Part shown: one piece after another, positions 3,160 to 63,621 of the stretch
How the letters are laid out: each line of letters starts with the position of its first letter
Numbering within the stretch: the stretch's first letter is position 1
Origin: Candidatus Saccharimonadales bacterium
GTDB lineage: Bacteria > Patescibacteriota > Saccharimonadia > Saccharimonadales > UBA10212
Length of the DNA: 64,000 nt
Assembly (NCBI GenBank): GCA_035758565.1
Contig: DASTXL010000001.1
Coordinates: 203,242-267,241 of the forward strand
Direction of reading: 5' to 3'
Notes under the pieces: generated by a model
What the model was told of the DNA's origin: nothing
Database searches by the model: none
What the model saw: the letters and a program-made list of their open reading frames with translations, nothing else
Program-made: the position numbers and the translations under genes

Positions 3160-3478
3160 GTCAGTATTCTTAAAGCCGCGCTTGAGCGAGAAAGCCTATG
3201 CAACCAGCGAGGTCACCAATACTTATGTTTTTGATGTTCCAGCTGATATGAACAAGCATGCCATTGCTGACGCCGTAGCTGCTCAGTATGAAGTTACGGT
3301 TACCAATGTTCGGATTACCAATATTCCTGGTAAGGCCAAAAAGCTTTATCGTAAGCGCACCCGTGGTATTGAAACCAAGCGTAATGATGTCCGTAAGGCT
3401 TACGTAACTTTAAAGCAAGGCGATAACCTGCCATTCTTTGCCGGCAGCGAAGCTGAAGCAGGCGAGGAGGCTAAGTAA
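3152..3478 (+). CDS. rplW: 50S ribosomal protein uL23
   Basis: Position between rplD and rplB, with size and sequence typical of uL23. Confidence 0.9.
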   Translation: MSKSVFLKPRLSEKAYATSEVTNTYVFDVPADMNKHAIADAVAAQYEVTVTNVRITNIPGKAKKLYRKRTRGIETKRNDVRKAYVTLKQGDNLPFFAGSEAEAGEEAK

Positions 3479-3479
3479 T

Positions 3480-4316
3480 ATGGCTATCAAGGCTTACAAT
3501 CCAACTACTCCAGGTCGCCGTGGTATGAGCACGCAGGATTTTGATGCTATCACTACTAAAAAGCCTGTTAAGAGCTTGCTGCGCATCAAAAAATCCACTG
3601 CTGGTCGCAACAACCAAGGCCGCATCACTACTCGCCACAAGGGCGGCGGGGTTAAGAACTACTATCGTTTAGTTAACTTCAAACTACCTGTCGGTACGGA
3701 GGCTACTGTTGAGCACATTGAATACGACCCAAATCGTAGTGCCCGAATTGCCCGCGTCAAAGACCAAAATGGCGCTCTGCACTATATATTAGCCGTTCGT
3801 GGCATGCGCCCAGGTCAGAAGTTTACTGTTGCCGAAGAAACCAGCATTGAGTCTGGCAATCGTTTGCCGCTCAAGAGCATTCCAACCGGTACTGTTATCC
3901 ACGCTATCGAACTGCAACCGGGCCGTGGTGCTCAGCTGGTCCGCACCGCCGGCGCTGGTGCCCAGCTAGTTGCTAAAGAAGAAGATTACGCTCAGGTTCG
4001 CCTGCCAAGCGGTGAGGTTCGCATGATTAATGTTGAGTGCATGGCTACCATAGGTGTAATTGGTAATGAGCAGCATCAAAATATCCAAGTTGGTAAAGCC
4101 GGCCGCAACCGCTTAAAGGGTAAACGCCCAACTGTTCGCGGTGTAGTAATGAACGCCGCCGACCACCCTCACGGTGGTGGTGACGGTGGTCGTCACCGTA
4201 TGGCCCGCCCGCCCGTAACTCCGTGGGGTCAGAAGACTTTGGGCTATAAGACTCGCCGCCGAAAAGCAAGTAGCAAGTTTATTGTAAGAACACGTCATCA
4301 AGGAAAGAGGAGATAG
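3480..4316 (+). CDS. rplB: 50S ribosomal protein uL2
   Basis: Starts [15 protein letters not shown] at 3480. HPHGGGDG motif present. Confidence 0.95.
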
Positions 4317-5216: not shown

Positions 5217-5846
5217 ATGGGCCAAAAAGTAAATCCAATCAGCATGCGTTTACAAGTCAACAAAGATTGGCGCTCTAAGTGGTTTGCCGGCAAGCGCGAA
5301 TACGCCAACTACCTCAAGCAGGATTTGGCTGCCCGCAAGCTCATTGCCGACAAACTTGGTTCTCGCGCCGCTGTATCTAAGGTTGATATCGAACGCTCGC
5401 CAAACCTAGTCACCGTAACTATCCAGACTGCTAAGGCCGGTGTTGTTATTGGCCGTGGCGGTTCCGGCGCCGCTGAACTCAAAGAGGCTATCGAAAAACT
5501 TTATGGTGTTCCGACCCGCGTAAACATCGAAGAGATTAAGCGCCCTGAGCTGCAGGCCAAGCTGGTTGCCGAAAATATTGCCCACCAGCTAGAACGCCGT
5601 ATTGCCTTCCGCCGCGCCATGAAAATGGCCGCTGCCGGCAGTATGCGTGCTGGCGCTAAGGGCATTCGCATAGAAGTTTCCGGTCGCCTAGGCGGTATGG
5701 AAATGAGCCGTCGCGAAAAAATTACTGAAGGCTCTGTGCCTCTGCACACGCTTCGCGCTGACATTGACTACGCTGCTGCCCGCGCTCTTTACCCGGGTGC
5801 CGGCATCATTGGTGTTAAAGTTTGGATCTACCGAGGGGAGACCTAA
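5217..5846 (+). CDS. rpsC: 30S ribosomal protein uS3
   Basis: MGQKVNP start, KH-domain sequence and operon position. Confidence 0.95.
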   Translation: MGQKVNPISMRLQVNKDWRSKWFAGKREYANYLKQDLAARKLIADKLGSRAAVSKVDIERSPNLVTVTIQTAKAGVVIGRGGSGAAELKEAIEKLYGVPTRVNIEEIKRPELQAKLVAENIAHQLERRIAFRRAMKMAAAGSMRAGAKGIRIEVSGRLGGMEMSRREKITEGSVPLHTLRADIDYAAARALYPGAGIIGVKVWIYRGET

Positions 5847-23870: not shown

Positions 23871-24738
23871 CGATCTTTTGCTGCACGAAGCTACTCGTCA
23901 ACAATTGGATGGTTTTATGAAAAGACCGTCACATGCTCTATTGCTTAGCGGTCTGCCCGGTAGCGGCAAATTAACTGTTGCTCGAGCACTAGCCGCGCAG
24001 CTGCTTTCACTTGAACCAGAAGTATTAGAAAATTATCCTCATTTCTTAATAATCAGTCGCTCTGGCGGTAAGCAAGATATAAGTATCGATTCGATTCGGC
24101 AAATTCCTCGTGCTTTATACCTACAAATTCCTGGAAACGCAGCCGTAAAGAGAGTGATTTTGATAGAAGATGCCCAACTCATGAACCCAGAGGCTCAAAA
24201 CGCACTTTTAAAATCGTTAGAAGAACCCGGCGGCGGCACGATCTTTATACTAACTGCCACGGACAAAGCAGAGCTTTTGCCAACCGTCGCCTCTAGAGCA
24301 ACCAGCATTTCTATCAATCCGGTAGGGCAGGAATTAGCCGTTAAATTCTTTAATCAGTTCCCTCAGAACAAAGTTCTATCGGCTTGGGCGCTTAGCCAGG
24401 GCGCCCCTGGACTGCTAGCAACATTACTGGGCGAAGAAGACAGTGAACTTAGATCAGCAGTTGATCAGGCCAAAACTTTCCTTACCATGGACCGCTACGA
24501 GCGGTTAGTAGAACTAGATCGGTTAAGCAAGAACAAAGCAGACCTCTCTAATCTGTTAGAAGGTCTAAAGCGCGTACTCAACGCTTTATATAGAAATGCG
24601 GCCAAAACCAATAACAAAGACAGGCTAAAGAGGTTTTTAGAGGCTACGAAGCTAGTGAGTCAATCTCAGCAAGATTTAAATAACAGCGTTATGCCGCGTT
24701 TAATTATCCTAAAATTAGCCCTGAGCTTACCGGTATAG
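23863..24738 (+). CDS. holB: DNA polymerase III subunit delta-prime
   Basis: The ATG at 23863 overlaps the rluD end. HALLLSGLPGSGKLTVA P-loop-like motif and a clamp-loader fold pattern (LLKSLEEP, SR). Confidence 0.7.
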   Translation: MFNDLLLHEATRQQLDGFMKRPSHALLLSGLPGSGKLTVARALAAQLLSLEPEVLENYPHFLIISRSGGKQDISIDSIRQIPRALYLQIPGNAAVKRVILIEDAQLMNPEAQNALLKSLEEPGGGTIFILTATDKAELLPTVASRATSISINPVGQELAVKFFNQFPQNKVLSAWALSQGAPGLLATLLGEEDSELRSAVDQAKTFLTMDRYERLVELDRLSKNKADLSNLLEGLKRVLNALYRNAAKTNNKDRLKRFLEATKLVSQSQQDLNNSVMPRLIILKLALSLPV

Positions 24739-24759
24739 ATTTGTTATAATTAAGCCGAA

Positions 24760-25413
24760 ATGTATTCACTACTCTTATTAGTTGTACTTTGGTTGGTTGT
24801 TTATCGGCACGGTCACCGCTCCGAACAAGAAATGGTGGTGATTCCGCAGCGAATTGGTAACCGTTTAACCAAACTTTGGGAAATAGCGCATATGGGTATG
24901 CGTGAGAATCGTTTATTACGCGCCGAAAAGGCCCTTTTGACCATTCTTAAAATCGACGAAAAGAACGCCGCCGCTTATAACCGCTTAGGCATTTTGTACG
25001 CTAAACAGCGTGAATACCGAGACGCTATCGACTGTTTTGAAATTGCTAGCTCCATCGAGCCAAGCGCTTCCAGCCTGCACAACCTGGGACTGATCTATTA
25101 CGAAACAGAGAATTATCAAAAGGCCGCTACCGCTTTCGAGCAAGCCCTTAAACTGGAAGATGAGCTGGCTGCCCGCCATATTGCCTATGCCAAAGTTCAG
25201 GAAAAATTAGGCAATGAGAAACTGATGATTCAGGAGCTGGAAAAATCCGCCGAACTTGAGCCAAACCGCGAAACGTATGCCTTGCTCACCAAAGCCTATG
25301 AAGCTCAAGGCATGGAAGACGAAGCCAAAGCCGCCCAAAAGAAACTTGATAAAATGTTGCTGCCGGCAGCAAAGCATAAACGAATCTTACGCCCCAAACG
25401 GGTGGTTATCTAA
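24760..25413 (+). CDS. TPR-repeat protein with an N-terminal TM helix
   Basis: N-terminus MYSLLLLVVLWLVVY. TPR-like AYNRLGILYAKQREYRDAIDCFEIA repeats. TGTTATAAT promoter upstream. Confidence 0.6.
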   Translation: MYSLLLLVVLWLVVYRHGHRSEQEMVVIPQRIGNRLTKLWEIAHMGMRENRLLRAEKALLTILKIDEKNAAAYNRLGILYAKQREYRDAIDCFEIASSIEPSASSLHNLGLIYYETENYQKAATAFEQALKLEDELAARHIAYAKVQEKLGNEKLMIQELEKSAELEPNRETYALLTKAYEAQGMEDEAKAAQKKLDKMLLPAAKHKRILRPKRVVI

Positions 25414-25865
25414 AAACACAACCTTACTACAGACAAATAAACCCAAATTATAACAAAACCAAAAACAAACAGGCTAAATAGAGTTAACGCAAAAGTTGCT
25501 TCAATCCTCACGCGCCTAATTTCAATTTTTGAAGCTAATTTATGAATCGAAAGCAAAAGCGTCGACGCTAATAAGACAATGGTTGCTAAACTAGAGATAA
25601 TCAGATAGGGATAGTACTTGGACGCTCCACAGGTGTCAGAAGATGGGTCGAGGTAGTTGGATAATAAAGTGAGTGCTGTAGCTACCAGCAGGCTGATAAA
25701 GGACGATCGTAGCCTGTGTCTGGCTACTGTCGACCAGGCCGTTTCTACTATCATTGCATAAGTATAGTACGGTTTAGATTTTTTACCGCAATATCTGGCA
25801 TTTTTACCTCTGTTTTGATAAACTAACTTCGAGCTTAACAAATAAGCTCTTTTTCTTGCCGACAT
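25410..25865 (-). CDS. Hypothetical multi-TM membrane protein (start uncertain)
   Basis: Hydrophobic ORF. The annotated ATG lies 8 nt inside tRNA-Thr, so the internal M at 25754 is an alternative start. Confidence 0.35.
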   Translation of the reverse strand: MSARKRAYLLSSKLVYQNRGKNARYCGKKSKPYYTYAMIVETAWSTVARHRLRSSFISLLVATALTLLSNYLDPSSDTCGASKYYPYLIISSLATIVLLASTLLLSIHKLASKIEIRRVRIEATFALTLFSLFVFGFVIIWVYLSVVRLCF

Positions 25866-25933
25866 AGCTCAGTGGCTAGAGCGGCTGTTTTGTAAACAGC
25901 GGGTCGTGGGTTCGAATCCCTCTGTCGGCTCCA
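25858..25933 (+). tRNA. tRNA-Thr (anticodon UGU)
   Basis: Manual cloverleaf: acceptor GCCGACA/TGTCGGC, D arm GCTC...GAGC, anticodon stem GCTGT/ACAGC with loop TTTGTAA, T-loop TTCGAAT, encoded CCA. Confidence 0.85.
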
Positions 25934-26085
25934 TGATTTTGAGCCCGCCTTTTGGCGGTAGCAAAATTATCTAGTCGATACGGATGAGAACCCGGGTGAG
26001 TGAGCGAAAGCGAACAAGGGTTCGTACAGGAATGAGCGTGCAGGAATTTATTCCGAACAAGCGAATTCCGTGCAAGCGTAAGCGC

Positions 26086-26103
26086 ATCCCTCTGTCGGCT
26101 CCA
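26086..26103 (+). repeat. Direct repeat of the tRNA-Thr(UGU) 3' end (18/18 nt)
   Basis: ATCCCTCTGTCGGCTCCA is identical to 25916-25933, and lies 152 nt after the tRNA end. Confidence 0.9.
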
Positions 26104-26197
26104 TTTTTTGAACGTGTTTGCGAGGGCGTTCAAGGTGAGGAAAGTTCAGGTGGGTGTTACATTGCTAACCGCACTATACTCTGCTATAGTGCGGTCT

Positions 26198-26602
26198 ATG
26201 CAGACTAAACAAAAGGGAGATCTAGCCCTAGCATCCGCAATTCAATATTTTGTCAGCCAGGATTACGAGGTCTGTCTGCCGATAGGAGACAAGCGTGACT
26301 ATGACTTAATAATTGAGAAGGGTGGCCAGCTGTCTAGGGTTCAGGTAAAGTACGCTGGCTTATACCTGCGCGGCAATCAATGTAAGGTGGGACTACGCAT
26401 AACTGGCGGAAATCAATCATTTCATTATGCAAAGAAATACATGGACGATGCCTTTGACGAGCTTTTTGTTTATACTGCTAAGGGTGAAATGTTCCTTTTG
26501 CCATGGAGTAAAGTAACCGCAAGAAATGAAATCAGTATCGAACATAAAAAATATGAAGTTTTTCGACTGCGCGGAGGTAGTGAAGCGGTCAAACACGTCT
26601 GA
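26198..26602 (+). CDS. PD-(D/E)XK endonuclease, I-Ssp6803I-like (PDDEXK_5-type) homing-endonuclease candidate
   Basis: Start at MQTKQKGDLALASAIQYF. The DYDLIIEKGGQLSRVQVKY core gives a D...(Q)VK motif. The last 32 nt, including the stop, overlap tRNA-Tyr. Confidence 0.55.
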   Translation: MQTKQKGDLALASAIQYFVSQDYEVCLPIGDKRDYDLIIEKGGQLSRVQVKYAGLYLRGNQCKVGLRITGGNQSFHYAKKYMDDAFDELFVYTAKGEMFLLPWSKVTARNEISIEHKKYEVFRLRGGSEAVKHV

Positions 26603-26656
26603 CTGTAAATCAGATGGCATTCGCCTTCGGGGGTTCGAATCCCTCCCTCCGCACCA
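26571..26656 (+). tRNA. tRNA-Tyr (anticodon GUA), class II with long variable arm
   Basis: Acceptor GCGGAGG/CCTCCGC, anticodon stem TCTGA/TCAGA with loop CTGTAAA, 14-nt variable arm, T-loop TTCGAAT, encoded CCA. Confidence 0.85.
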
Positions 26657-26832
26657 TGAAATATGGCTAGTCATTTGACCGGCCATATTTCATCTTGTAG
26701 AGTGGGCTGAACCACCGGCGACAGCTTTAGCTGGCGCAAAAGGGGTTCGGCGTAGCAAAGGCACGCGCAAAAGCTCAGCTTTGAGCATGTCTGAGGCGGA
26801 GAAGCGACGAGCCGCAAGGCGAGGGAAGCGCT

Positions 26833-26850
26833 ATCCCTCCCCCTGCACCA
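26833..26850 (+). repeat. Imperfect direct repeat of the tRNA-Tyr 3' end (16/18 nt)
   Basis: ATCCCTCCCCCTGCACCA here compared with ATCCCTCCCTCCGCACCA at 26639-26656, 176 nt after the tRNA end. Confidence 0.75.
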
Positions 26851-26861
26851 AGTACAGCAAA

Positions 26862-27293
26862 ATGAATGATTTGAAACCTAAAGTTGGCGTCGGTATATTC
26901 CTCATCAAAGAAGGTCAATTATTGATGGGTAAAAGAAAGGGGTCTCACGGAGAGGGCGAGTATGCCTTGCCTGGCGGCCACCTGGAACAAGGCGAGTCTT
27001 TTGAAGAATGTGTTTTGAGGGAGCTAAAAGAGGAGGCTGGTCCAGATCTCAAGGTTGATCGGATCAAATTTCTGTGCGTGACTAATCTCCGCAAATATGC
27101 CCCTAAGCACTACGTAGATATAGGTATGTTAGCCGAGTATGTGTCAGGAGAACCGATAGTTGCAGAACCGGACGAAAAAGACTCCTGGGAATGGTACGAC
27201 ATGGATAAGTTGCCCGAACCTTTGTTTGGATGCACGGAAAACTATATTGAATCCTATCGGACTGGCAAGAGTTACTTTGAAGGCAACTTATAA
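26862..27293 (+). CDS. NUDIX hydrolase
   Basis: Nudix box GGHLEQGESFEECVLRELKEEAG. The start was trimmed to the ATG at 26862 so that the pseudo-tRNA end is not translated. Confidence 0.8.
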   Translation: MNDLKPKVGVGIFLIKEGQLLMGKRKGSHGEGEYALPGGHLEQGESFEECVLRELKEEAGPDLKVDRIKFLCVTNLRKYAPKHYVDIGMLAEYVSGEPIVAEPDEKDSWEWYDMDKLPEPLFGCTENYIESYRTGKSYFEGNL

Positions 27294-28310
27294 ATGGACA
27301 AGTTTAAAGAGATTCTCGAAAAAGCAGCAAGTGTTTTGATTATTACCCATGTCGGGCCGGATCCTGACGCTTTTTGCTCTTTGCTTTTGACCGGAACTAC
27401 TTTAGAGGCAAACTATCCAGATAAAAAAATAGTTATGAGCTCAGAAGAACAAACCGGCGGGCTTAACTTCTTAACCGGTTATGGCAAGATTAAGCTTCAA
27501 AAACTCGCTGATGCTATCCAGAATGACCAACCGGACCTAATAATTATGGTCGATGCCATGAATTTTAAGCGCTGCACGCGTGGCGACGATCAAGAGATCG
27601 CCAAACTTGTCAAAGAAAAGCGCATCAAGCTAGCCATTATCGATCATCACGAAAGAGTCAACATTGAAGAAAATAACGTTTATATCAACCAAGACAGCCC
27701 AGCGGCCGTGCAAGATGTCTATGAGGTGATGTTTAGCGGCATAAAACTCAATAAACCAGTGGGTTATGCCCAAACCACTATGCTTGGTTTATACTCTGAC
27801 ACCGGCGGATTTGCCTACGAGAATAAACGCTACCGTGACACCTTGAAACTTGTAGGTGATTTGATAGAAGCCGGCGCCAGCGTGGAAAAGACCAGAAACC
27901 TACTCGATCGCTACAGCACCGACAGTATGCTCGCTCTAAGCGAACTGGCCCGCAACCTTAGCCATAAAGATGATTATTCGTTCAGCTTCGTGGGCGATGA
28001 TTTCACTAAAAACTGGCAAAATCAGGGAAAGAATTTTGACGAGCTCAAGATTGCTTGCGGCCATTTTGCTAATGACTACATTCGAAATATAGATGGCCGA
28101 GTCTGGGGCTTTGTGGTCTATAAGGATTTAGCCGGCGGAGACGATATTTACGGGGTTTCATTGCGCGCTATGGGCGGAACCAAGAACGTAGCTTTAATCG
28201 CCAACGCGCTTGGCGGTGGCGGCCACATTGCTGCTGCCGGAACGAAAATCAAAGCCAGTAGCGTGCAAGAAGTGATTAAAGCCGTACAATCTACCATTTC
28301 ACAGATGTAG
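27294..28310 (+). CDS. DHH-family phosphoesterase (NrnA-like)
   Basis: HVGPDPDA, IDHH and GGGGH motifs. Confidence 0.65.
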   Translation: MDKFKEILEKAASVLIITHVGPDPDAFCSLLLTGTTLEANYPDKKIVMSSEEQTGGLNFLTGYGKIKLQKLADAIQNDQPDLIIMVDAMNFKRCTRGDDQEIAKLVKEKRIKLAIIDHHERVNIEENNVYINQDSPAAVQDVYEVMFSGIKLNKPVGYAQTTMLGLYSDTGGFAYENKRYRDTLKLVGDLIEAGASVEKTRNLLDRYSTDSMLALSELARNLSHKDDYSFSFVGDDFTKNWQNQGKNFDELKIACGHFANDYIRNIDGRVWGFVVYKDLAGGDDIYGVSLRAMGGTKNVALIANALGGGGHIAAAGTKIKASSVQEVIKAVQSTISQM

Positions 28311-28329
28311 TTTGTGGTAAACTACTTCC

Positions 28330-28932
28330 ATGTCAAAAGATAGGACTACCATAAACAAAGTCACCCTAGAGACCTTGTATGTAAAAAAGGGGATGTCCAT
28401 GAGCACCATAGCCAAAGAGTTAGGGTGCTCGGTTAACAGGGTGGTCTATTGGATGGATCAACATGGTATTAAAAGGCGCAGCATTAGTGACGCCATTTAC
28501 TTGCACAAAAATCCCAATGGAGACCCGTTCAAAATAATAACGCCCACCACACTAGAAGAAGCCAAGCTTTTAGGCTTAGGAATCGGCCTCTACTGGGGTG
28601 AGGGCACGAAGGCAAATAAGCACTCTGTGCGTTTAGGAAACTCAAATCCACATTTAATCATCGCTTTTATAAAATTTCTTACTATAATATGCGGTGTCAA
28701 TAAAGACCATCTGAAATTTGGGTTGCAACTTTTTTCAGACGTCAGTAAGAATGAAGCCTTGAATTTCTGGACAGAAGCTCTTAGCGTAAAACCCTCGCAA
28801 TTTTATAAGATAACAGTTACTATATCTGGTGCGATTGGAACATACCGGATAAAAAATAAATACGGAGTGTTAACAATCTATTACCACAACAAGAAGCTAC
28901 GAGACGCTTTAGTCTCGATGTTGCCGACATAG
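28330..28932 (+). CDS. HTH + single-motif LAGLIDADG-like homing-endonuclease candidate
   Basis: N-terminal HTH (MSTIAKELGCSVNRVVYWM). LLGLGIGLYWGEGTK resembles a LAGLIDADG motif. The last 10 nt, including the stop, overlap tRNA-Thr(GGU). Confidence 0.45.
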   Translation: MSKDRTTINKVTLETLYVKKGMSMSTIAKELGCSVNRVVYWMDQHGIKRRSISDAIYLHKNPNGDPFKIITPTTLEEAKLLGLGIGLYWGEGTKANKHSVRLGNSNPHLIIAFIKFLTIICGVNKDHLKFGLQLFSDVSKNEALNFWTEALSVKPSQFYKITVTISGAIGTYRIKNKYGVLTIYYHNKKLRDALVSMLPT

Positions 28933-28997
28933 CTCAGGGGTAGAGCACGATCATGGTAAGATCGGGGTCATGGGTTCAAATCCCATTGTCGGCTCCA
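28923..28997 (+). tRNA. tRNA-Thr (anticodon GGU)
   Basis: Acceptor GCCGACA/TGTCGGC, anticodon stem CGATC/GATCG with loop ATGGTAA, T arm ATGGG-TTCAAAT-CCCAT, encoded CCA. Confidence 0.85.
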
Positions 28998-29196
28998 GAA
29001 AATTATCACAAAAACTGTGTGATAAAAATTACAGTGCGTATCTCGCCTATGAGCTTAAATGTACTTGTGTTTGTTGGGAGGTAAGCCTGAATGATTTATA
29101 GGCGCAAACACCAGTGAGTCCCGTCCGTTAGCTCGGAGCGGGGCTCTTTATTTTAGAGTTGTTTAATAGTCCCGTATCTGTTAATATATTTTCGAT

Positions 29197-29403
29197 ATGG
29201 CAAAAAAAGGTGATAAACGCAAAGTTGTTGGGCTGGTGTGCGAGGCTTGCGGCCAGCGCCACTACTACACCACCAAGAACACTATGAATACCCCAGAAAA
29301 GCTGGAGCTTAAAAAGCTATGCCCGGTTAAAAGGGTTATAGCTGTTCAGTCAGAAACCAAAAAAAGCCTAGGTCGCAACGAAGTCAAACCCCGCAAACAC
29401 TAA
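29197..29403 (+). CDS. rpmG: 50S ribosomal protein bL33 (with C-terminal extension)
   Basis: [28 protein letters not shown]...LELKKLCP. Conserved neighbour of tRNA-Trp, secE and nusG. Confidence 0.85.
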
Positions 29404-29476
29404 AACTAGCGGTTAATTTAAAACTGTTCTAAAATACTGGGGTCCCCGCAAATTTTAATTTGTGGGGTAATTCAAA

Positions 29477-29551
29477 GGGGAGTAGCTCAGTTGGTAGAGC
29501 ACCGGTCTCCAAAACCGGGTGTCGCAGGTTCAAGTCCTGTCTCCCCTGCCA
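29477..29551 (+). tRNA. tRNA-Trp (anticodon CCA)
   Basis: Acceptor GGGGAGT/CTCCCCT, anticodon stem CCGGT/ACCGG with loop CTCCAAA, T-loop TTCAAGT, encoded CCA. Confidence 0.85.
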
Positions 29552-29702
29552 AAATAAAGTAGTCTGTCGTAAAGACAGGCTGTTTTATTTTGATATGAGT
29601 TAGGACTTGAACCGATAGGCATGAATGGCCAGTAGGCTATTCATGTTTTCTTTGCTTGGCCGGCTCGGCCAATGCTTGCATTTTGGCCAGCCGCAGAATA
29701 AC

Positions 29703-29724
29703 TCAAGTCCTGTCTCCCCTGCCA
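29703..29724 (+). repeat. Direct repeat of the tRNA-Trp 3' end (22/22 nt)
   Basis: TCAAGTCCTGTCTCCCCTGCCA is identical to 29530-29551. An inverted copy of the T-arm (AGGACTTGAACC) lies at 29602-29613. Confidence 0.9.
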
Positions 29725-29758
29725 AGACGACCGCCTAATTATAGACGGTCGTCTTTTT
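29725..29758 (+). terminator. Rho-independent terminator after the duplicated tRNA-Trp end
   Basis: AGACGACCG...CGGTCGTCT stem followed by TTTT. Confidence 0.6.
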
Positions 29759-29796
29759 ACTTTATTAGCTAATCTGACAGTGGTAAAATCAAGAGG

Positions 29797-30459
29797 ATGA
29801 GTAAAACGGTTCTAGATAAACCGGTTCTATTATGTCTTTATGGCTTCCCGGGAGCGGGCAAGAGTTATGTGGCCCGCAACATGGCTAGTGAGGTCCAGAT
29901 GGCTCACGTCAGCGCCGATCGCATTCGCAGCGAGCTATTCCAGCAGCCACGCTATGACGCCCAAGAAAACGCAATAGTTTTACACCTTATGAATTACATG
30001 ACCGCCGAGTTTTTAGAAGCTGGTGTCAGTGTTGTTTACGATATTTGTGCTGCTCGCCTAGGGCAGCGCAGGGCACTGCGCGAACTAGCCAAAAAACACA
30101 GAGCCGAGTATTTGCTGGTTTGGCTGCAAATTGATCAAGATAGCGCCTTTAACCGGACTCAAGCTCGCGACCGCAGAACCAGCGATGATCGTTTCGCCCA
30201 GCCGCAAACCCAAGAATCCTTTGGCAAAGTGGTTGGCGACATGCAGAATCCTAACCCCAACGAACCTTACATGGTTATCAGCGGCAAACACTCCTTCGTA
30301 ACTCAGAAAAACGCCGTGGTTAACAAGTTCTACCAACTAGGTCTAATCAACAGCGAGATGGTCCAGCAACATGTGGCTAAACCGGAATTGATCAATCTTG
30401 TCCCTAATCCATACAGCGGCCGCGTGGATATGAGCCGCCGAAACATAACCATAAGATAG
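29797..30459 (+). CDS. P-loop kinase-like ATP-binding protein (AAA_33/zeta-like fold)
   Basis: Walker A GFPGAGKS near the N-terminus; the size fits small P-loop kinases. Confidence 0.45.
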   Translation: MSKTVLDKPVLLCLYGFPGAGKSYVARNMASEVQMAHVSADRIRSELFQQPRYDAQENAIVLHLMNYMTAEFLEAGVSVVYDICAARLGQRRALRELAKKHRAEYLLVWLQIDQDSAFNRTQARDRRTSDDRFAQPQTQESFGKVVGDMQNPNPNEPYMVISGKHSFVTQKNAVVNKFYQLGLINSEMVQQHVAKPELINLVPNPYSGRVDMSRRNITIR

Positions 30460-30460
30460 A

Positions 30461-31186
30461 ATGTCGCAAAAACGAGTTGAAATACCTGGCATAGGCGAGG
30501 TCGTTTTGTCTAAACGACGCGGCACCACACACTTGCGGCTTAGCGTTAATGCTAAGGGCATAGTCCGAGTCGGTATGCCTTATTGGACTCCTTATGCCGC
30601 CGGCATAGCTTTTGCCCGCGAGCGCACTGACTGGATCAACAAACACCTGTCAAGTCACACCAAGGCCACTTTTAGAAGCGGCGATAGGATTGGTAAGGCT
30701 CATGTTTTGAGCATTAATCAGGATGTAGCGTTGGATAGACCAAAATCCAGACTAACAAAGACCGAGGTAATAATTAGCAGTCCTTTGCCGATTGATCACA
30801 AATTCACTCAAGAGAAAATAGTTGAGGCGTCGATCCGTGCGCTAAAACAAGAGGCTGAGACACTGTTGCCGCAACGGCTGCAATATCTAGCCCGCCAACA
30901 CGGTTTTAACTATAAAGAGGTAAGGATTCGCAGTCTAACATCCAGGTGGGGTAGTTGCTCGACCCACAAGGTCATTACTTTGAGTTTTTATCTTATGCAA
31001 TTGCCCTGGGAATTAATAGATTACGTTCTTTTGCACGAGCTGGTTCATACCGAGCAAATGAATCACGGCCCGGATTTTTGGCGACGCTTTGAAAGCGTAC
31101 TGCCAGGCGCCAAAAAATTAAGAAAGCAGGTTAATGCTCACAAACCCAGAGTTATCGCCACTAACCTCGGTGAAATGCTTGCTTAA
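30461..31186 (+). CDS. YgjP-like metallopeptidase (DUF45/M48 family)
   Basis: RWGSCS motif and the zinc motif LLHELVHTEQMNHGPDFW. Confidence 0.65.
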   Translation: MSQKRVEIPGIGEVVLSKRRGTTHLRLSVNAKGIVRVGMPYWTPYAAGIAFARERTDWINKHLSSHTKATFRSGDRIGKAHVLSINQDVALDRPKSRLTKTEVIISSPLPIDHKFTQEKIVEASIRALKQEAETLLPQRLQYLARQHGFNYKEVRIRSLTSRWGSCSTHKVITLSFYLMQLPWELIDYVLLHELVHTEQMNHGPDFWRRFESVLPGAKKLRKQVNAHKPRVIATNLGEMLA

Positions 31187-48025: not shown

Positions 48026-48265
48026 TCTGTTACCGTGTCTTAATGGGAGATATGCCCGCTTAGACTGTTGCCTAACAGAGTTAATTTTGCTAATATATCC
48101 AGGAACTTGAGCCAAAGACAGCGACGGGGAAACCTTAATAAAGTCGCCTAGGAACAAGAAAGTCTTATAGATTTTTACGTTAGTCTTTTGGCCATAATAG
48201 GCCATTTTTTATAGCTCAAGACACCTTAACAAATTGGTCGATATTGTTAAACAAGGAGAAAACTC
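48026..48265 (+). promoter_or_regulatory. Long untranslated leader upstream of rplJ (candidate L10 autoregulatory leader)
   Basis: 240 nt without a credible ORF, ending in an AAGGAGAAAA SD. L10-leader regulation is known in many bacteria, but no structure was verified here. Confidence 0.25.
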
Positions 48266-63447: not shown

Positions 63448-63600
63448 AGGCCGATAAATGGATCTTTAGGATTCGTTTGTCGGCCTTGATTTTTTAGATG
63501 GGATTCGAACGGGTTTGCCGGGGGCAAACCCCGAACCTAGCCCGGCGACCATGGGAGCCGGGTCGCCTTGGCAAAAGTAATTTTTCTTTTGCCGGCGAGG

Positions 63601-63621
63601 CGAATCCCTCCGTCCCAGCCA
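63601..63621 (+). repeat. Direct repeat of the tRNA-Gln 3' end (21/21 nt)
   Basis: CGAATCCCTCCGTCCCAGCCA is identical to 63427-63447. An inverted T-arm-like GGGATTCGAAC lies at 63500-63510. Confidence 0.9.

What the first reader, a model, noticed from the sequence alone, without database searches (positions are those of the whole stretch)
26198..26602. I-Ssp6803I-like PD-(D/E)XK endonuclease ORF runs 32 nt into tRNA-Tyr
The ORF has the hallmarks of the PD-(D/E)XK homing-endonuclease family exemplified by I-Ssp6803I (KGDLA..A...F...GYEV..P.GD...YDLII...G.L.RVQVKY). I-Ssp6803I is known from a tRNA-gene group I intron. Here the gene is free-standing. It sits between the duplicated tRNA-Thr end (26086-26103) and tRNA-Tyr, and its final 10 codons and stop are made of the tRNA-Tyr acceptor and D-arm sequence. 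That suggests insertion of a mobile endonuclease gene right at a tRNA boundary, or a tRNA+HEG mobile unit. Free-standing endonuclease genes embedded in tRNA clusters are known from phage T4 (segB).
Basis: partly seen in the sequence, partly recalled or inferred. Interest (0 to 1): 0.55.

Follow-up and report, generated by a model that had tools for sequence, protein, structure and literature searches.

The report
Free-standing homing endonuclease at tRNA-Tyr
A small selfish nuclease gene of the I-Ssp6803I type, known until now from a tRNA intron, sits here on its own just in front of the tRNA-Tyr gene; most close relatives of this Saccharibacteria genome lack it, and it occupies the same spot in other CPR phyla.

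Summary
ORF 26198-26602 (134 aa) matches Pfam PDDEXK_5 (E 8.6e-21). Its model superposes on I-Ssp6803I (2OST, TM 0.8). It runs 32 nt into tRNA-Tyr (26571-26656).

Only 3 of 101 tRNA-Tyr-anchored metagenome loci, mostly syntenic Saccharibacteria, carry the gene. The nearest relatives have tRNA-Thr and tRNA-Tyr 7-8 nt apart. When present, the gene always abuts the 5' end of tRNA-Tyr, in Saccharibacteria, Yonathbacteria and Berkelbacteria. Its identity (about 65%) does not fall with host distance. One copy is frameshifted. Phage relatives (34-40% identity) lie inside phage tRNA clusters.

The cassette carries a predicted extended -10 promoter ending 7 nt before the ATG, so the mRNA is probably leaderless. 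The tail inside the tRNA is a lineage-specific read-through: homologs usually stop at about 124 aa.

The "duplicated tRNA-Thr end" is unrelated to the endonuclease. It closes a 170-nt insertion absent from an endonuclease-bearing relative. The same kind of unit follows 4 of the 5 tRNAs in this window. It also follows many tRNAs in Coriobacteriia, Clostridia, Proteobacteria, other CPR and a haloarchaeon, and matches no Rfam family.

Verdict: a new variant of a known kind. The tRNA-end units are the more novel lead.

The parts
25858..25933 (+). tRNA-Thr(TGT). It is the native upstream neighbour of tRNA-Tyr in Saccharibacteria.
   Evidence: ARAGORN and Rfam tRNA, 69.6 bits. tRNA-Thr lies directly upstream of tRNA-Tyr in most syntenic loci.
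25934..26103 (+). 170-nt insertion unrelated to the endonuclease. It has a terminator-like hairpin (about 25934-25969) and a degenerate reverse-complement T-arm piece (about 25982-25993). A structured stretch with a GAGCGAAAGCGAAC motif follows, then the 18-nt copy of the tRNA-Thr 3' end (26086-26103).
   Evidence: Repeat D2 is 18/18. The fold has z = -4.1. L001 lacks the insertion: its sequence after the CCA aligns with the window sequence after 26103.
26104..26161 (+). Native tRNA-Thr/tRNA-Tyr spacer. It contains a hairpin with a conserved TTGCGAG loop (about 26108-26133), followed by GGTGGGTGTTAC.
   Evidence: This stretch is shared by alleles with and without the endonuclease (L239, L175, L222, L155) in the alignment.
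26162..26197 (+). 5' end of the endonuclease cassette. Predicted promoter: -35 TTGCTA 26162-26167, TG-extended -10 TATAGT 26185-26190. It lies within the conserved motif ACTATACTCTGCTATAGT and an 11-bp hairpin (26168-26178 / 26185-26195). The -10 ends 7 nt before the ATG, so a leaderless mRNA is inferred.
   Evidence: Promoter scan and hairpin I12. Among the alleles aligned, the motif occurs only where the endonuclease gene is present, 6-7 nt before the start codon, in three CPR phyla.
26198..26602 (+). PD-(D/E)XK homing-endonuclease gene (134 aa). The conserved core is residues 1 to about 124. The last ~10 residues (GGSEAVKHV) are a read-through tail encoded by tRNA-Tyr.
   Evidence: Pfam PF11645, 2OST by sequence and by fold, and alignment A1 with 46 invariant columns including D8, D36, E40 and Q49-V50-K51.
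26571..26656 (+). tRNA-Tyr(GTA). The endonuclease cassette abuts and overlaps its 5' end. It is presumably co-transcribed with the endonuclease gene.
   Evidence: ARAGORN and Rfam, 64.6 bits. tRNA-Tyr follows the endonuclease ORF in all 11 close-homolog loci examined.
26657..26850 (+). Second unit of the same kind after tRNA-Tyr. It has a hairpin (about 26657-26692), a structured stretch, and a decayed copy of the tRNA-Tyr 3' end at 26833-26850 (16/18).
   Evidence: Repeat D2. The fold has z = -4.2.

Best explanation
This is a free-standing homing-endonuclease cassette of the I-Ssp6803I (PDDEXK_5) family, lodged between tRNA-Thr(TGT) and tRNA-Tyr(GTA). The cassette spans about 26162-26570 and abuts the first base of tRNA-Tyr. 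It consists of its own extended -10 promoter and a leaderless ORF with a conserved core of about 124 codons. Proposed mechanism (inferred): the nuclease cuts the cassette-free allele in or next to the tRNA-Tyr gene. Repair from a cassette-bearing copy, for example DNA taken up from relatives, then copies the cassette in, using tRNA-Tyr and the upstream spacer as homology. Because tRNA-Tyr is conserved, the same site is available in different CPR phyla. In this lineage the original stop codon was lost, so translation continues 32 nt into the tRNA. The ORF and the tRNA probably share one transcript. RNase P cleavage at the tRNA 5' end would then remove the stop codon, so full-length protein could come only from unprocessed transcripts (inferred). 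Shown here: family membership by sequence and fold, presence/absence polymorphism, the constant insertion site, identity that is flat across phyla, a decayed copy, and phage relatives in tRNA clusters. Not shown: cleavage, the target sequence, transcription start and processing.
For: Family: PF11645 E 8.6e-21; 2OST phmmer E 4.4e-7; AlphaFold model with pLDDT 83.6 and Foldseek top hit 2OST at TM 0.78-0.80; catalytic-type residues invariant in 12 homologs. Sporadic presence: 3 of 101 tRNA-Tyr-anchored metagenome loci carry it, and 75 of the 120 scanned loci share at least one of the window's flanking genes (TrpS, RluD, holB, TPR, NUDIX, DHH), mostly on the tRNA-Thr side. The tRNA-Thr to tRNA-Tyr gap is 15 nt or less in 49 loci. 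The nearest relatives by the neighbouring TPR protein (82-83% identity; L144, L160) lack it, with gaps of 8 and 7 nt. Constant site: all 11 close homologs examined end between 5 nt before and 38 nt inside tRNA-Tyr. This holds in Saccharibacteria (L001, L003, L004, L010, L139, L256), Yonathbacteria or Parcubacteria-type loci (L005, L258) and Berkelbacteria (L008), although the upstream genes differ (tRNA-Thr, ClpB, TruD). Horizontal signal: endonuclease identity to the window is 65-76% within Saccharibacteria and 65-67% in the other phyla. Ribosomal protein L33 falls from 67-81% to 35-43%, and holB is only 31-43% within Saccharibacteria. Decay: L145 carries a frameshifted copy next to tRNA-Tyr. 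The cassette-specific promoter motif appears only in the aligned alleles that carry the endonuclease. Phage relatives lie inside tRNA clusters, one of them overlapping a phage tRNA-Tyr by 7 nt (L260).
Against: No cleavage site can be named. The tRNA-Tyr 5' region in the alignment (about 30 nt) reads the same in alleles with and without the cassette, and the bases just upstream vary, so it is unclear how bearers avoid cutting themselves. Synonymous sites are saturated between all copies compared (pS 0.76-1.0, pN 0.19-0.25). No recent transfer is therefore caught in the act, and the flat identity across phyla could partly be a constraint plateau. No endonuclease remnants were detected in the larger cassette-free spacers. 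The long-term purifying selection would also fit a host-useful function.
Confidence: 0.72

Rival explanations
1. The gene is a domesticated or host-beneficial nuclease, kept because it serves the cell. For example, it might maintain or amplify the tRNA locus or act in defence, as newly reported for phage SegB. It would not be an actively homing element.
For: There is strong, long-term purifying selection: pN 0.19-0.25 with saturated pS, and 46 invariant columns. The gene has its own conserved promoter motif. According to its abstract, a 2026 paper links SegB, tRNA-Tyr cleavage by the Septu defence system and amplification of anti-defence loci (PMC13096335, found; only the abstract was read).
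Against: Only 3 of 101 tRNA-Tyr-anchored loci, most of them Saccharibacteria, carry it, and the closest relatives lack it. A frameshifted copy exists. Its identity does not track host phylogeny.
Confidence: 0.15
2. tRNA-Tyr and the endonuclease gene move together as one mobile unit.
For: The ORF and tRNA-Tyr abut or overlap in every case. In four homologs the read-through enters the tRNA in the same frame.
Against: In the alignment of the tRNA-Tyr 5' region (about 30 nt), endonuclease-bearing genomes carry the same sequences as cassette-free relatives of the same lineage (for example window = L155; L010 and L139 = L239 and L144). tRNA-Tyr differs strongly between Saccharibacteria, Yonathbacteria and Berkelbacteria, while the endonucleases stay about 65% identical.
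Confidence: 0.05
3. The gene is the remnant of an intron-encoded endonuclease: a group I intron or its relic lies in or beside tRNA-Tyr, as for I-Ssp6803I in tRNA-fMet.
For: NCBI names the protein 'group I intron-associated PD-(D/E)XK endonuclease'. A relative (L003) has a roughly 200-nt insertion in the anticodon loop of the nearby tRNA-Thr(GGT), with a weak Intron_gpI match.
Against: tRNA-Tyr is uninterrupted and scores as a normal tRNA. No Intron_gpI match at E <= 1 was found in 24000-31000. The ORF starts 7 nt after a promoter-like -10 and ends at the tRNA 5' end, leaving no room for ribozyme domains.
Confidence: 0.03
4. The 18-nt tRNA-Thr duplication is a footprint of the endonuclease insertion, that is, repair-associated duplication at the cut site.
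For: The duplication lies 95 nt upstream of the ORF.
Against: L001 has the endonuclease but no duplication. Its sequence after the tRNA-Thr CCA aligns with the window sequence after the duplicate. The same architecture follows tRNA-Tyr, tRNA-Trp and tRNA-Gln in this window. It also follows tRNAs in many phyla with no endonuclease nearby.
Confidence: 0.02

Closest known systems
I-Ssp6803I (PDB 2OST; Pfam PF11645 PDDEXK_5), the homing endonuclease of the Synechocystis tRNA-fMet group I intron
   Same: It shares the protein family and fold: Pfam E 8.6e-21, and 26% identity at TM 0.8 to 2OST. The aligned YD...VQVK catalytic motif is the same, the size is similar, and both are associated with a tRNA gene.
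   Different: The gene here is not inside an intron. It is free-standing, with a predicted promoter of its own, and lies 5' of tRNA-Tyr rather than in the anticodon loop of tRNA-fMet. It occurs in CPR bacteria, whereas a 2012 review says close homologues are generally cyanobacterial (PMC3384342). The C-terminal 30 positions of the Pfam profile are not matched.
Phage T4 SegB and other free-standing Seg/Mob endonucleases in T-even phage tRNA clusters
   Same: Both are free-standing endonuclease genes placed between tRNA genes, with sporadic presence among relatives. Preferential inheritance of the flanking region is expected. The T4 biology is from my own knowledge plus the abstract of PMC13096335.
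   Different: SegB is a GIY-YIG enzyme in a phage. This is a PD-(D/E)XK enzyme in a cellular genome. Homing has been shown experimentally for SegB and not for this gene.
PDDEXK_5 genes in phage tRNA clusters, including very large (225-450 kb) contigs (IMG/VR contigs, loci L252-L255 and L260-L266)
   Same: They belong to the same family (34-40% identity). Every one inspected lies within 0.5 kb of a tRNA gene, most of them between tRNA genes. L260 ends 7 nt inside a phage tRNA-Tyr, and L254 ends 6 nt before a tRNA-Ser.
   Different: They are a distant subfamily in viral genomes, and most lie after tRNA-Lys rather than before tRNA-Tyr. I know of no published characterisation.

Membership tests
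PD-(D/E)XK homing endonucleases of the I-Ssp6803I type (Pfam PDDEXK_5) | Significant match to the family profile | tested here: met
   PF11645 E 8.6e-21, 74.8 bits against a cut-off of 26.1, profile positions 1-108 of 138. All listed homologs carry PF11645.
PD-(D/E)XK homing endonucleases of the I-Ssp6803I type (Pfam PDDEXK_5) | Restriction-endonuclease-like fold closest to I-Ssp6803I | tested here: met
   The AlphaFold model has pLDDT 83.6 and pTM 0.80. The four best Foldseek hits are chains of 2OST (E 1e-8 to 1e-6, TM 0.67-0.80). The next hits are Hjc resolvases at E about 0.02.
PD-(D/E)XK homing endonucleases of the I-Ssp6803I type (Pfam PDDEXK_5) | Catalytic acidic and lysine residues conserved | tested here: met
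   KGD, YD36L and Q49-V-K51 align with the same residues of 2OST. They are invariant in 12 homologs.
PD-(D/E)XK homing endonucleases of the I-Ssp6803I type (Pfam PDDEXK_5) | [quoted passage not shown] | tested here: not met
   tRNA-Tyr and tRNA-Thr are uninterrupted. There is no Intron_gpI match at E <= 1 in 24000-31000. The ORF lies in the spacer.
PD-(D/E)XK homing endonucleases of the I-Ssp6803I type (Pfam PDDEXK_5) | Site-specific cleavage of the empty allele, and homing | not testable with these tools
   This needs an in vitro cleavage assay or a genetic cross.
Free-standing homing endonuclease genes (Seg/Mob-like behaviour) | Intergenic position between conserved genes, with presence/absence polymorphism at one site among close relatives | tested here: met
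   3 of 101 loci carry it. Syntenic relatives with 82-83% identical TPR neighbours lack it. The insertion boundaries were mapped by alignment.
Free-standing homing endonuclease genes (Seg/Mob-like behaviour) | Gene phylogeny decoupled from host phylogeny | tested here: inconclusive
   Identity is flat across phyla (66.7% within Saccharibacteria against 63.2% between phyla), while L33 drops to 35-43%. Synonymous sites are saturated, so a constraint plateau cannot be excluded.
Free-standing homing endonuclease genes (Seg/Mob-like behaviour) | GIY-YIG or HNH catalytic domain, as in Seg and Mob proteins | tested here: not met
   The domain is PD-(D/E)XK. The gene works like a Seg gene but is not a member of that protein family.
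tRNA-targeted integrative elements (considered only for the duplicated tRNA ends) | Direct repeat running from the T loop to the 3' end of the tRNA on both sides of the insert | tested here: met
   tRNA-Thr 18/18, tRNA-Tyr 16/18; tRNA-Trp and tRNA-Gln 21-nt copies read from the sequence, with 14/14 matched by script.
tRNA-targeted integrative elements (considered only for the duplicated tRNA ends) | Integrase and cargo genes between the repeats | tested here: not met
   The inserts are only about 150-180 nt with no ORF. No integrase-like sequence was recognised by eye among translated ORFs beside related sites. No profile search was run on them.

The most novel reading that the evidence does not exclude
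The 'duplicated tRNA-Thr end' may belong to an undescribed class of tiny elements, found in both Bacteria and Archaea, attached to tRNA genes. Each unit measures about 110-220 nt from the tRNA's CCA to the end of the copy. It has a terminator-like hairpin, a reverse-complement copy of the neighbouring tRNA's T arm (often reaching into the acceptor strand), and a 25-115-nt multi-hairpin core. The core often carries GNRA-type loops and the motif GAGCGAAGCGA on the tRNA strand only. The unit ends with an exact copy of the tRNA's last 18-21 nt. Units are present or absent at orthologous tRNAs, can form tandem arrays, and share their core between different tRNAs of one lineage while their ends match each tRNA. 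They could be minimal mobile DNAs that integrate at the T loop. In that case the inverted and direct copies would fold into a hairpin that mimics the target, as in the phage CTX attP site or integron attC sites. Alternatively they could be genes for small tRNA-end-mimicking RNAs. For the endonuclease itself, the most novel reading is that stop codons placed inside tRNA-Tyr couple its translation to RNase P processing.
Probability: 0.35. Interest if true: 0.8.

Novelty: new variant of a known kind. Interest (0 to 1): 0.5.

Why it matters
The I-Ssp6803I family would extend from an intron-borne curiosity of cyanobacteria to a free-standing, tRNA-gene-associated selfish element in ultra-small CPR bacteria and in phages, some of them very large. 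It offers a natural set of filled and empty alleles for defining a new homing site in a tRNA locus. It is also evidence of DNA exchange among CPR lineages. The arrangement, with a leaderless ORF in the tRNA leader and a stop codon inside the tRNA, is a compact test case for competition between translation and tRNA processing. Separately, the tRNA-end units found while checking the duplication may be a widespread element that genome annotation misses.

Tried and rejected
**Rejected explanations**
- Group I intron: the Rfam E-value scan of 24000-31000 found only tRNAs.
- Endonuclease remnants in larger cassette-free tRNA-Thr/tRNA-Tyr spacers: tblastn at E <= 10 gave nothing convincing.
- Immunity polymorphism in tRNA-Tyr: none was seen between alleles with and without the cassette.

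**Uninformative searches**
- NCBIfam gave no hit for the endonuclease or for the 131-aa ORF in L005.
- dN/dS could not be computed because synonymous sites are saturated.
- Close phage vectors: viral contigs hold only 34-40% identical relatives.

**For the tRNA-end units**
- No Rfam family matched at E <= 1 in the window region scanned (24000-31000) or at E <= 0.1 in eight related loci.
- blastn found no phage match and one unannotated Collinsella record.
- The inserts are not simply reverse-complement tRNAs: only the T-arm piece matches.
- A search for larger 'autonomous' versions with an integrase next to sites that have only the reverse-complement piece found ordinary genes, an inserted repeat element, truncations and one true convergent tRNA.
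- The resemblance of the 5' part to the tmRNA GGAUUCGAC signature was not supported by Rfam or ARAGORN.
- Literature searches found only the general phenomenon of tRNA fragments left by integration of 9-23 kb elements.

Full report
**1. The observation**

The window comes from a Candidatus Saccharimonadales (CPR/Patescibacteria) genome. The ORF product is 100% identical to an NCBI protein from such a metagenome-assembled genome, named 'group I intron-associated PD-(D/E)XK endonuclease'.

ARAGORN and Rfam place tRNA-Thr(TGT) at 25858-25933 and tRNA-Tyr(GTA) at 26571-26656. The ORF starting at ATG 26198 ends with TGA at 26600-26602. It therefore overlaps the tRNA by 32 nt, covering the acceptor 5' strand, the D arm and the start of the anticodon stem. 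A longer TTG start at 26108 exists, but the Pfam match begins at residue 1 of the ATG form.

Evidence that the protein is of the I-Ssp6803I type:
- It matches PF11645 (PDDEXK_5) at E 8.6e-21.
- It matches I-Ssp6803I (2OST) at E 4.4e-7, with the KGD, YDL and VQVK motifs aligned.
- An AlphaFold model (pLDDT 83.6) has the four 2OST chains as its best PDB matches (TM 0.67-0.80). Hjc resolvases and the nuclease domain of the SPARDA defence system follow far behind.
- The 18-nt copy of the tRNA-Thr 3' end at 26086-26103 is exact.

**2. Is the gene mobile?**

Where it occurs. Homologs at 60-77% identity are numerous in CPR metagenomes and are typically 124-126 aa long. I looked at the genomic context of eleven of them. 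In every case the ORF ends between 5 nt before and 38 nt inside a tRNA-Tyr(GTA) gene:
- Saccharibacteria: L001, L003, L004, L010, L139, L256.
- Yonathbacteria or Parcubacteria-type loci: L005, L258. Here ClpB lies upstream.
- Berkelbacteria: L008. Here TruD lies upstream.

Where it is absent. I scanned metagenome contigs with a tRNA-Tyr D-arm pattern that does not depend on the endonuclease.
- Of 101 loci with at least 450 nt upstream of tRNA-Tyr, only 3 carry the gene: one complete, one frameshifted, one cut by the contig end.
- Seventy-five of the 120 scanned loci share at least one of the window's flanking genes (TrpS, RluD, holB, TPR, NUDIX, DHH), mostly on the tRNA-Thr side. They are Saccharibacteria-like.
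- tRNA-Thr is followed by tRNA-Tyr within 15 nt or less in 49 loci, and within 16-50 nt in 24.
- The relatives closest by the neighbouring TPR protein (82-83% identity; L144, L160) have gaps of 8 and 7 nt and no endonuclease. L144 has the same tRNA-Thr 3' end as the window.

Boundaries. An alignment of alleles with and without the gene maps the insertion. The spacer up to ...GGTGGGTGTTAC (window 26104-26161) is native. Everything from about 26162 to the first base of tRNA-Tyr is cassette.

Phylogenetic signal.
- Endonuclease identity to the window copy is 65-76% within Saccharibacteria and 65-67% in the other phyla.
- Ribosomal protein L33 falls from 67-81% to 35-43%. holB is only 31-43% even within Saccharibacteria.
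- Mean pairwise endonuclease identity is 66.7% within Saccharibacteria and 63.2% between phyla.

Taken together, sporadic presence, one constant site next to a conserved gene, weak phylogenetic structure and a decaying copy are the classic signature of a homing-endonuclease gene.

Caveats.
- Synonymous sites are saturated in all comparisons (pS 0.76-1.0) while pN is 0.19-0.25.
- The copies are therefore old and under purifying selection.
- The flat identity could partly be a constraint plateau.

**3. Anatomy and likely working**

Promoter. All cassettes carry the motif ACTATACTCTG(C/T)TATA(A/G)T, or a close variant, ending 6-7 nt before the start codon. Cassette-free alleles in the alignment lack it. 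The promoter scan reads it as -35 TTGCTA (26162-26167) and a TG-extended -10 TATAGT (26185-26190). This predicts a transcript beginning at or next to the A of the ATG, that is, a leaderless mRNA. This is an inference. No terminator separates the ORF from tRNA-Tyr, so the ORF probably lies in the tRNA's 5' leader.

The overlap.
- Homolog alignment shows the natural C-terminus a few residues after the conserved EHKKY motif.
- The window protein, P0008, P0043 and P0082 have longer tails (...SEAVKHV, ...SEAVKHDRL, ...TKVVNWGRL, ...TQVVNEG).
- For the window, P0008 (L003) and P0043 (L008) I checked that these tails are translations of the tRNA-Tyr D arm. The similar P0082 tail fits the same reading.
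- The overlap is therefore a recurrent read-through variant after loss of the stop codon, not a conserved feature.
- RNase P cleavage at the tRNA 5' end would leave such an mRNA without a stop codon, which would limit expression to unprocessed transcripts. This too is an inference.

The target. It is unknown. The tRNA-Tyr 5' region in the alignment (about 30 nt) reads the same in alleles with and without the cassette, and the bases just upstream vary. I therefore cannot say how cassette bearers escape self-cleavage.

**4. Wider family**

Viral contigs hold only distant relatives (34-40% identity). Every one inspected lies within 0.5 kb of a tRNA gene, and most lie between tRNA genes.
- L260: between tRNA-Lys and tRNA-Tyr, overlapping tRNA-Tyr by 7 nt.
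- L254 and L255: ending 6 nt before tRNA-Ser.
- L261-L264: after tRNA-Lys.
- L252: 74 nt after tRNA-Tyr.

Together with I-Ssp6803I in the tRNA-fMet intron, this suggests a family-wide link to tRNA genes. [quoted passage not shown] I found no paper describing the CPR or phage free-standing forms. The closest functional analogue is phage T4 SegB, a GIY-YIG enzyme in the T4 tRNA cluster. That comparison rests on my own knowledge and the abstract of PMC13096335.

**5. The duplicated tRNA-Thr end is something else**

L001 carries the endonuclease but no duplication. Its sequence after the tRNA-Thr CCA aligns with the window sequence after 26103. Window 25934-26103 is therefore a separate 170-nt insertion.

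The same layout follows three other tRNAs in the window:
- tRNA-Tyr: copy at 26833-26850, 16/18.
- tRNA-Trp: copy at 29704-29724, with a reverse-complement T arm at 29600-29613.
- tRNA-Gln: copy at 63601-63621, with a reverse-complement T arm at 63500-63510.

Only tRNA-Thr(GGT) lacks it. The inserts fold more stably than shuffled sequence (z -4.1 to -7.8).

Distribution elsewhere.
- Of the 205 tRNAs tested in all loci held at that point, 89 also have a copy of their last 14 nt (2 mismatches or fewer) 90-300 nt downstream. The scan did not require this feature.
- The hosts include Collinsella and other Coriobacteriia, Oscillospiraceae, Faecalibacterium, Butyricicoccus, Chromatiales, Wenzhouxiangella, Verrucomicrobiota, several CPR phyla and the archaeon Halobellus. 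Several of these are isolate genomes.
- Units can be tandem (L012, L041, L080, L112).

Shared features.
- Cores are nearly identical at different tRNAs of one lineage (Collinsella tRNA-Val and tRNA-Glu), while the ends match each tRNA. This includes the unusual TTCAAGT T loops of tRNA-Trp and tRNA-Leu.
- The motif GAGCGAAGCGA (1 mismatch or fewer) occurs in 23 of 55 units on the tRNA strand and in none on the other strand.
- A consensus fold shows a closing helix between the inverted T-arm piece and the copy, plus an A-rich hairpin with compensatory changes.

Prevalence and annotation.
- In the unbiased Saccharibacteria-rich set, 11 of 333 tRNAs carry such a copy, against 0 with shuffled queries. 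The units are therefore sporadic, and this genome is rich in them.
- No Rfam family matches them.
- No phage record matches them.
- No integrase-like sequence was seen beside them; this was judged by eye only.

What they are remains open. I record them as a lead, not a conclusion.

**6. Verdict**

It needs two corrections. The tRNA does not travel with the gene, and the tRNA-Thr duplication is unrelated. The finding is a new variant of a known kind and of moderate interest. The tRNA-end units deserve a study of their own.

Noticed in passing
window 25934-26103, 26657-26850, 29552-29724, 63448-63621; also L005 3986-4157, L012, L041, L057, L080, L112 and many others: Four of the five tRNAs in the window are followed by a unit of about 150-195 nt. 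Each unit has a terminator-like hairpin, a reverse-complement copy of the tRNA's T arm at about +46 to +51, a multi-hairpin core, and an exact or near-exact copy of the tRNA's last 18-21 nt. The same architecture occurs in Coriobacteriia, Clostridia, Proteobacteria, Verrucomicrobiota, several CPR phyla and a haloarchaeon, sometimes in tandem (unit length about 110-220 nt across taxa). It matches no Rfam family.
   Followed up: partly
L003 4685-4970 (Saccharibacteria CP065016.1): A tRNA-Thr(GGT) appears to be interrupted in its anticodon loop by about 200 nt. ARAGORN does not call it. Rfam gives only a weak full-length Intron_gpI match (13.5 bits, E 0.61). It lies in the same tRNA neighbourhood as an endonuclease copy.
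   Followed up: partly
L145 about 5240-5568 (metagenome contig Ga0316189_10008464): There is a frameshifted copy of the endonuclease gene: two tblastn segments in different frames, 45-53% identical, next to tRNA-Tyr. It looks like a decaying copy.
   Followed up: partly
L005 3192-3587 (Yonathbacteria): A 131-aa ORF follows the reverse-complement T-arm piece downstream of tRNA-Tyr. By eye it has a PD-(D/E)XK-like pattern (DAIIE...LQIKSS). NCBIfam gave no hit; Pfam was not run on it.
   Followed up: partly
window 26108-26133: A hairpin with a conserved TTGCGAG loop, followed by GGTGGGTGTTAC, lies just after tRNA-Thr(TGT). It is shared by many Saccharibacteria whether or not they carry the endonuclease. 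Its function is unknown, and it has no T run typical of a terminator.
   Followed up: no
L252-L255, L260-L266 (IMG/VR phage contigs): Distant PDDEXK_5 genes lie in or next to phage tRNA clusters. In L252, ARAGORN also calls a tmRNA-like gene (3444-3842) just after the endonuclease gene.
   Followed up: partly
P0082 / L256 and P0100 / L010-L011: Proteins labelled by their sources as 'Candidatus Nitrosopolaris' (an archaeon) and 'Verrucomicrobiae' lie in typical Saccharibacteria contexts: RluD-holB-TPR-tRNA-Thr-endonuclease-tRNA-Tyr in L256, and TPR nearby plus tRNA-Thr-endonuclease-tRNA-Tyr in L010/L011. These bins or labels are probably wrong.
   Followed up: partly
window 48094-48218: A ribosomal protein L10 leader (RF00557) just reaches its gathering score (44.1 bits against 44). 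This is ordinary.
   Followed up: no
L039 2888-2946 (Magasanikiibacteriota): There is a sub-threshold type III hammerhead ribozyme match (40.7 bits against a gathering score of 48.5, E 2e-5).
   Followed up: no
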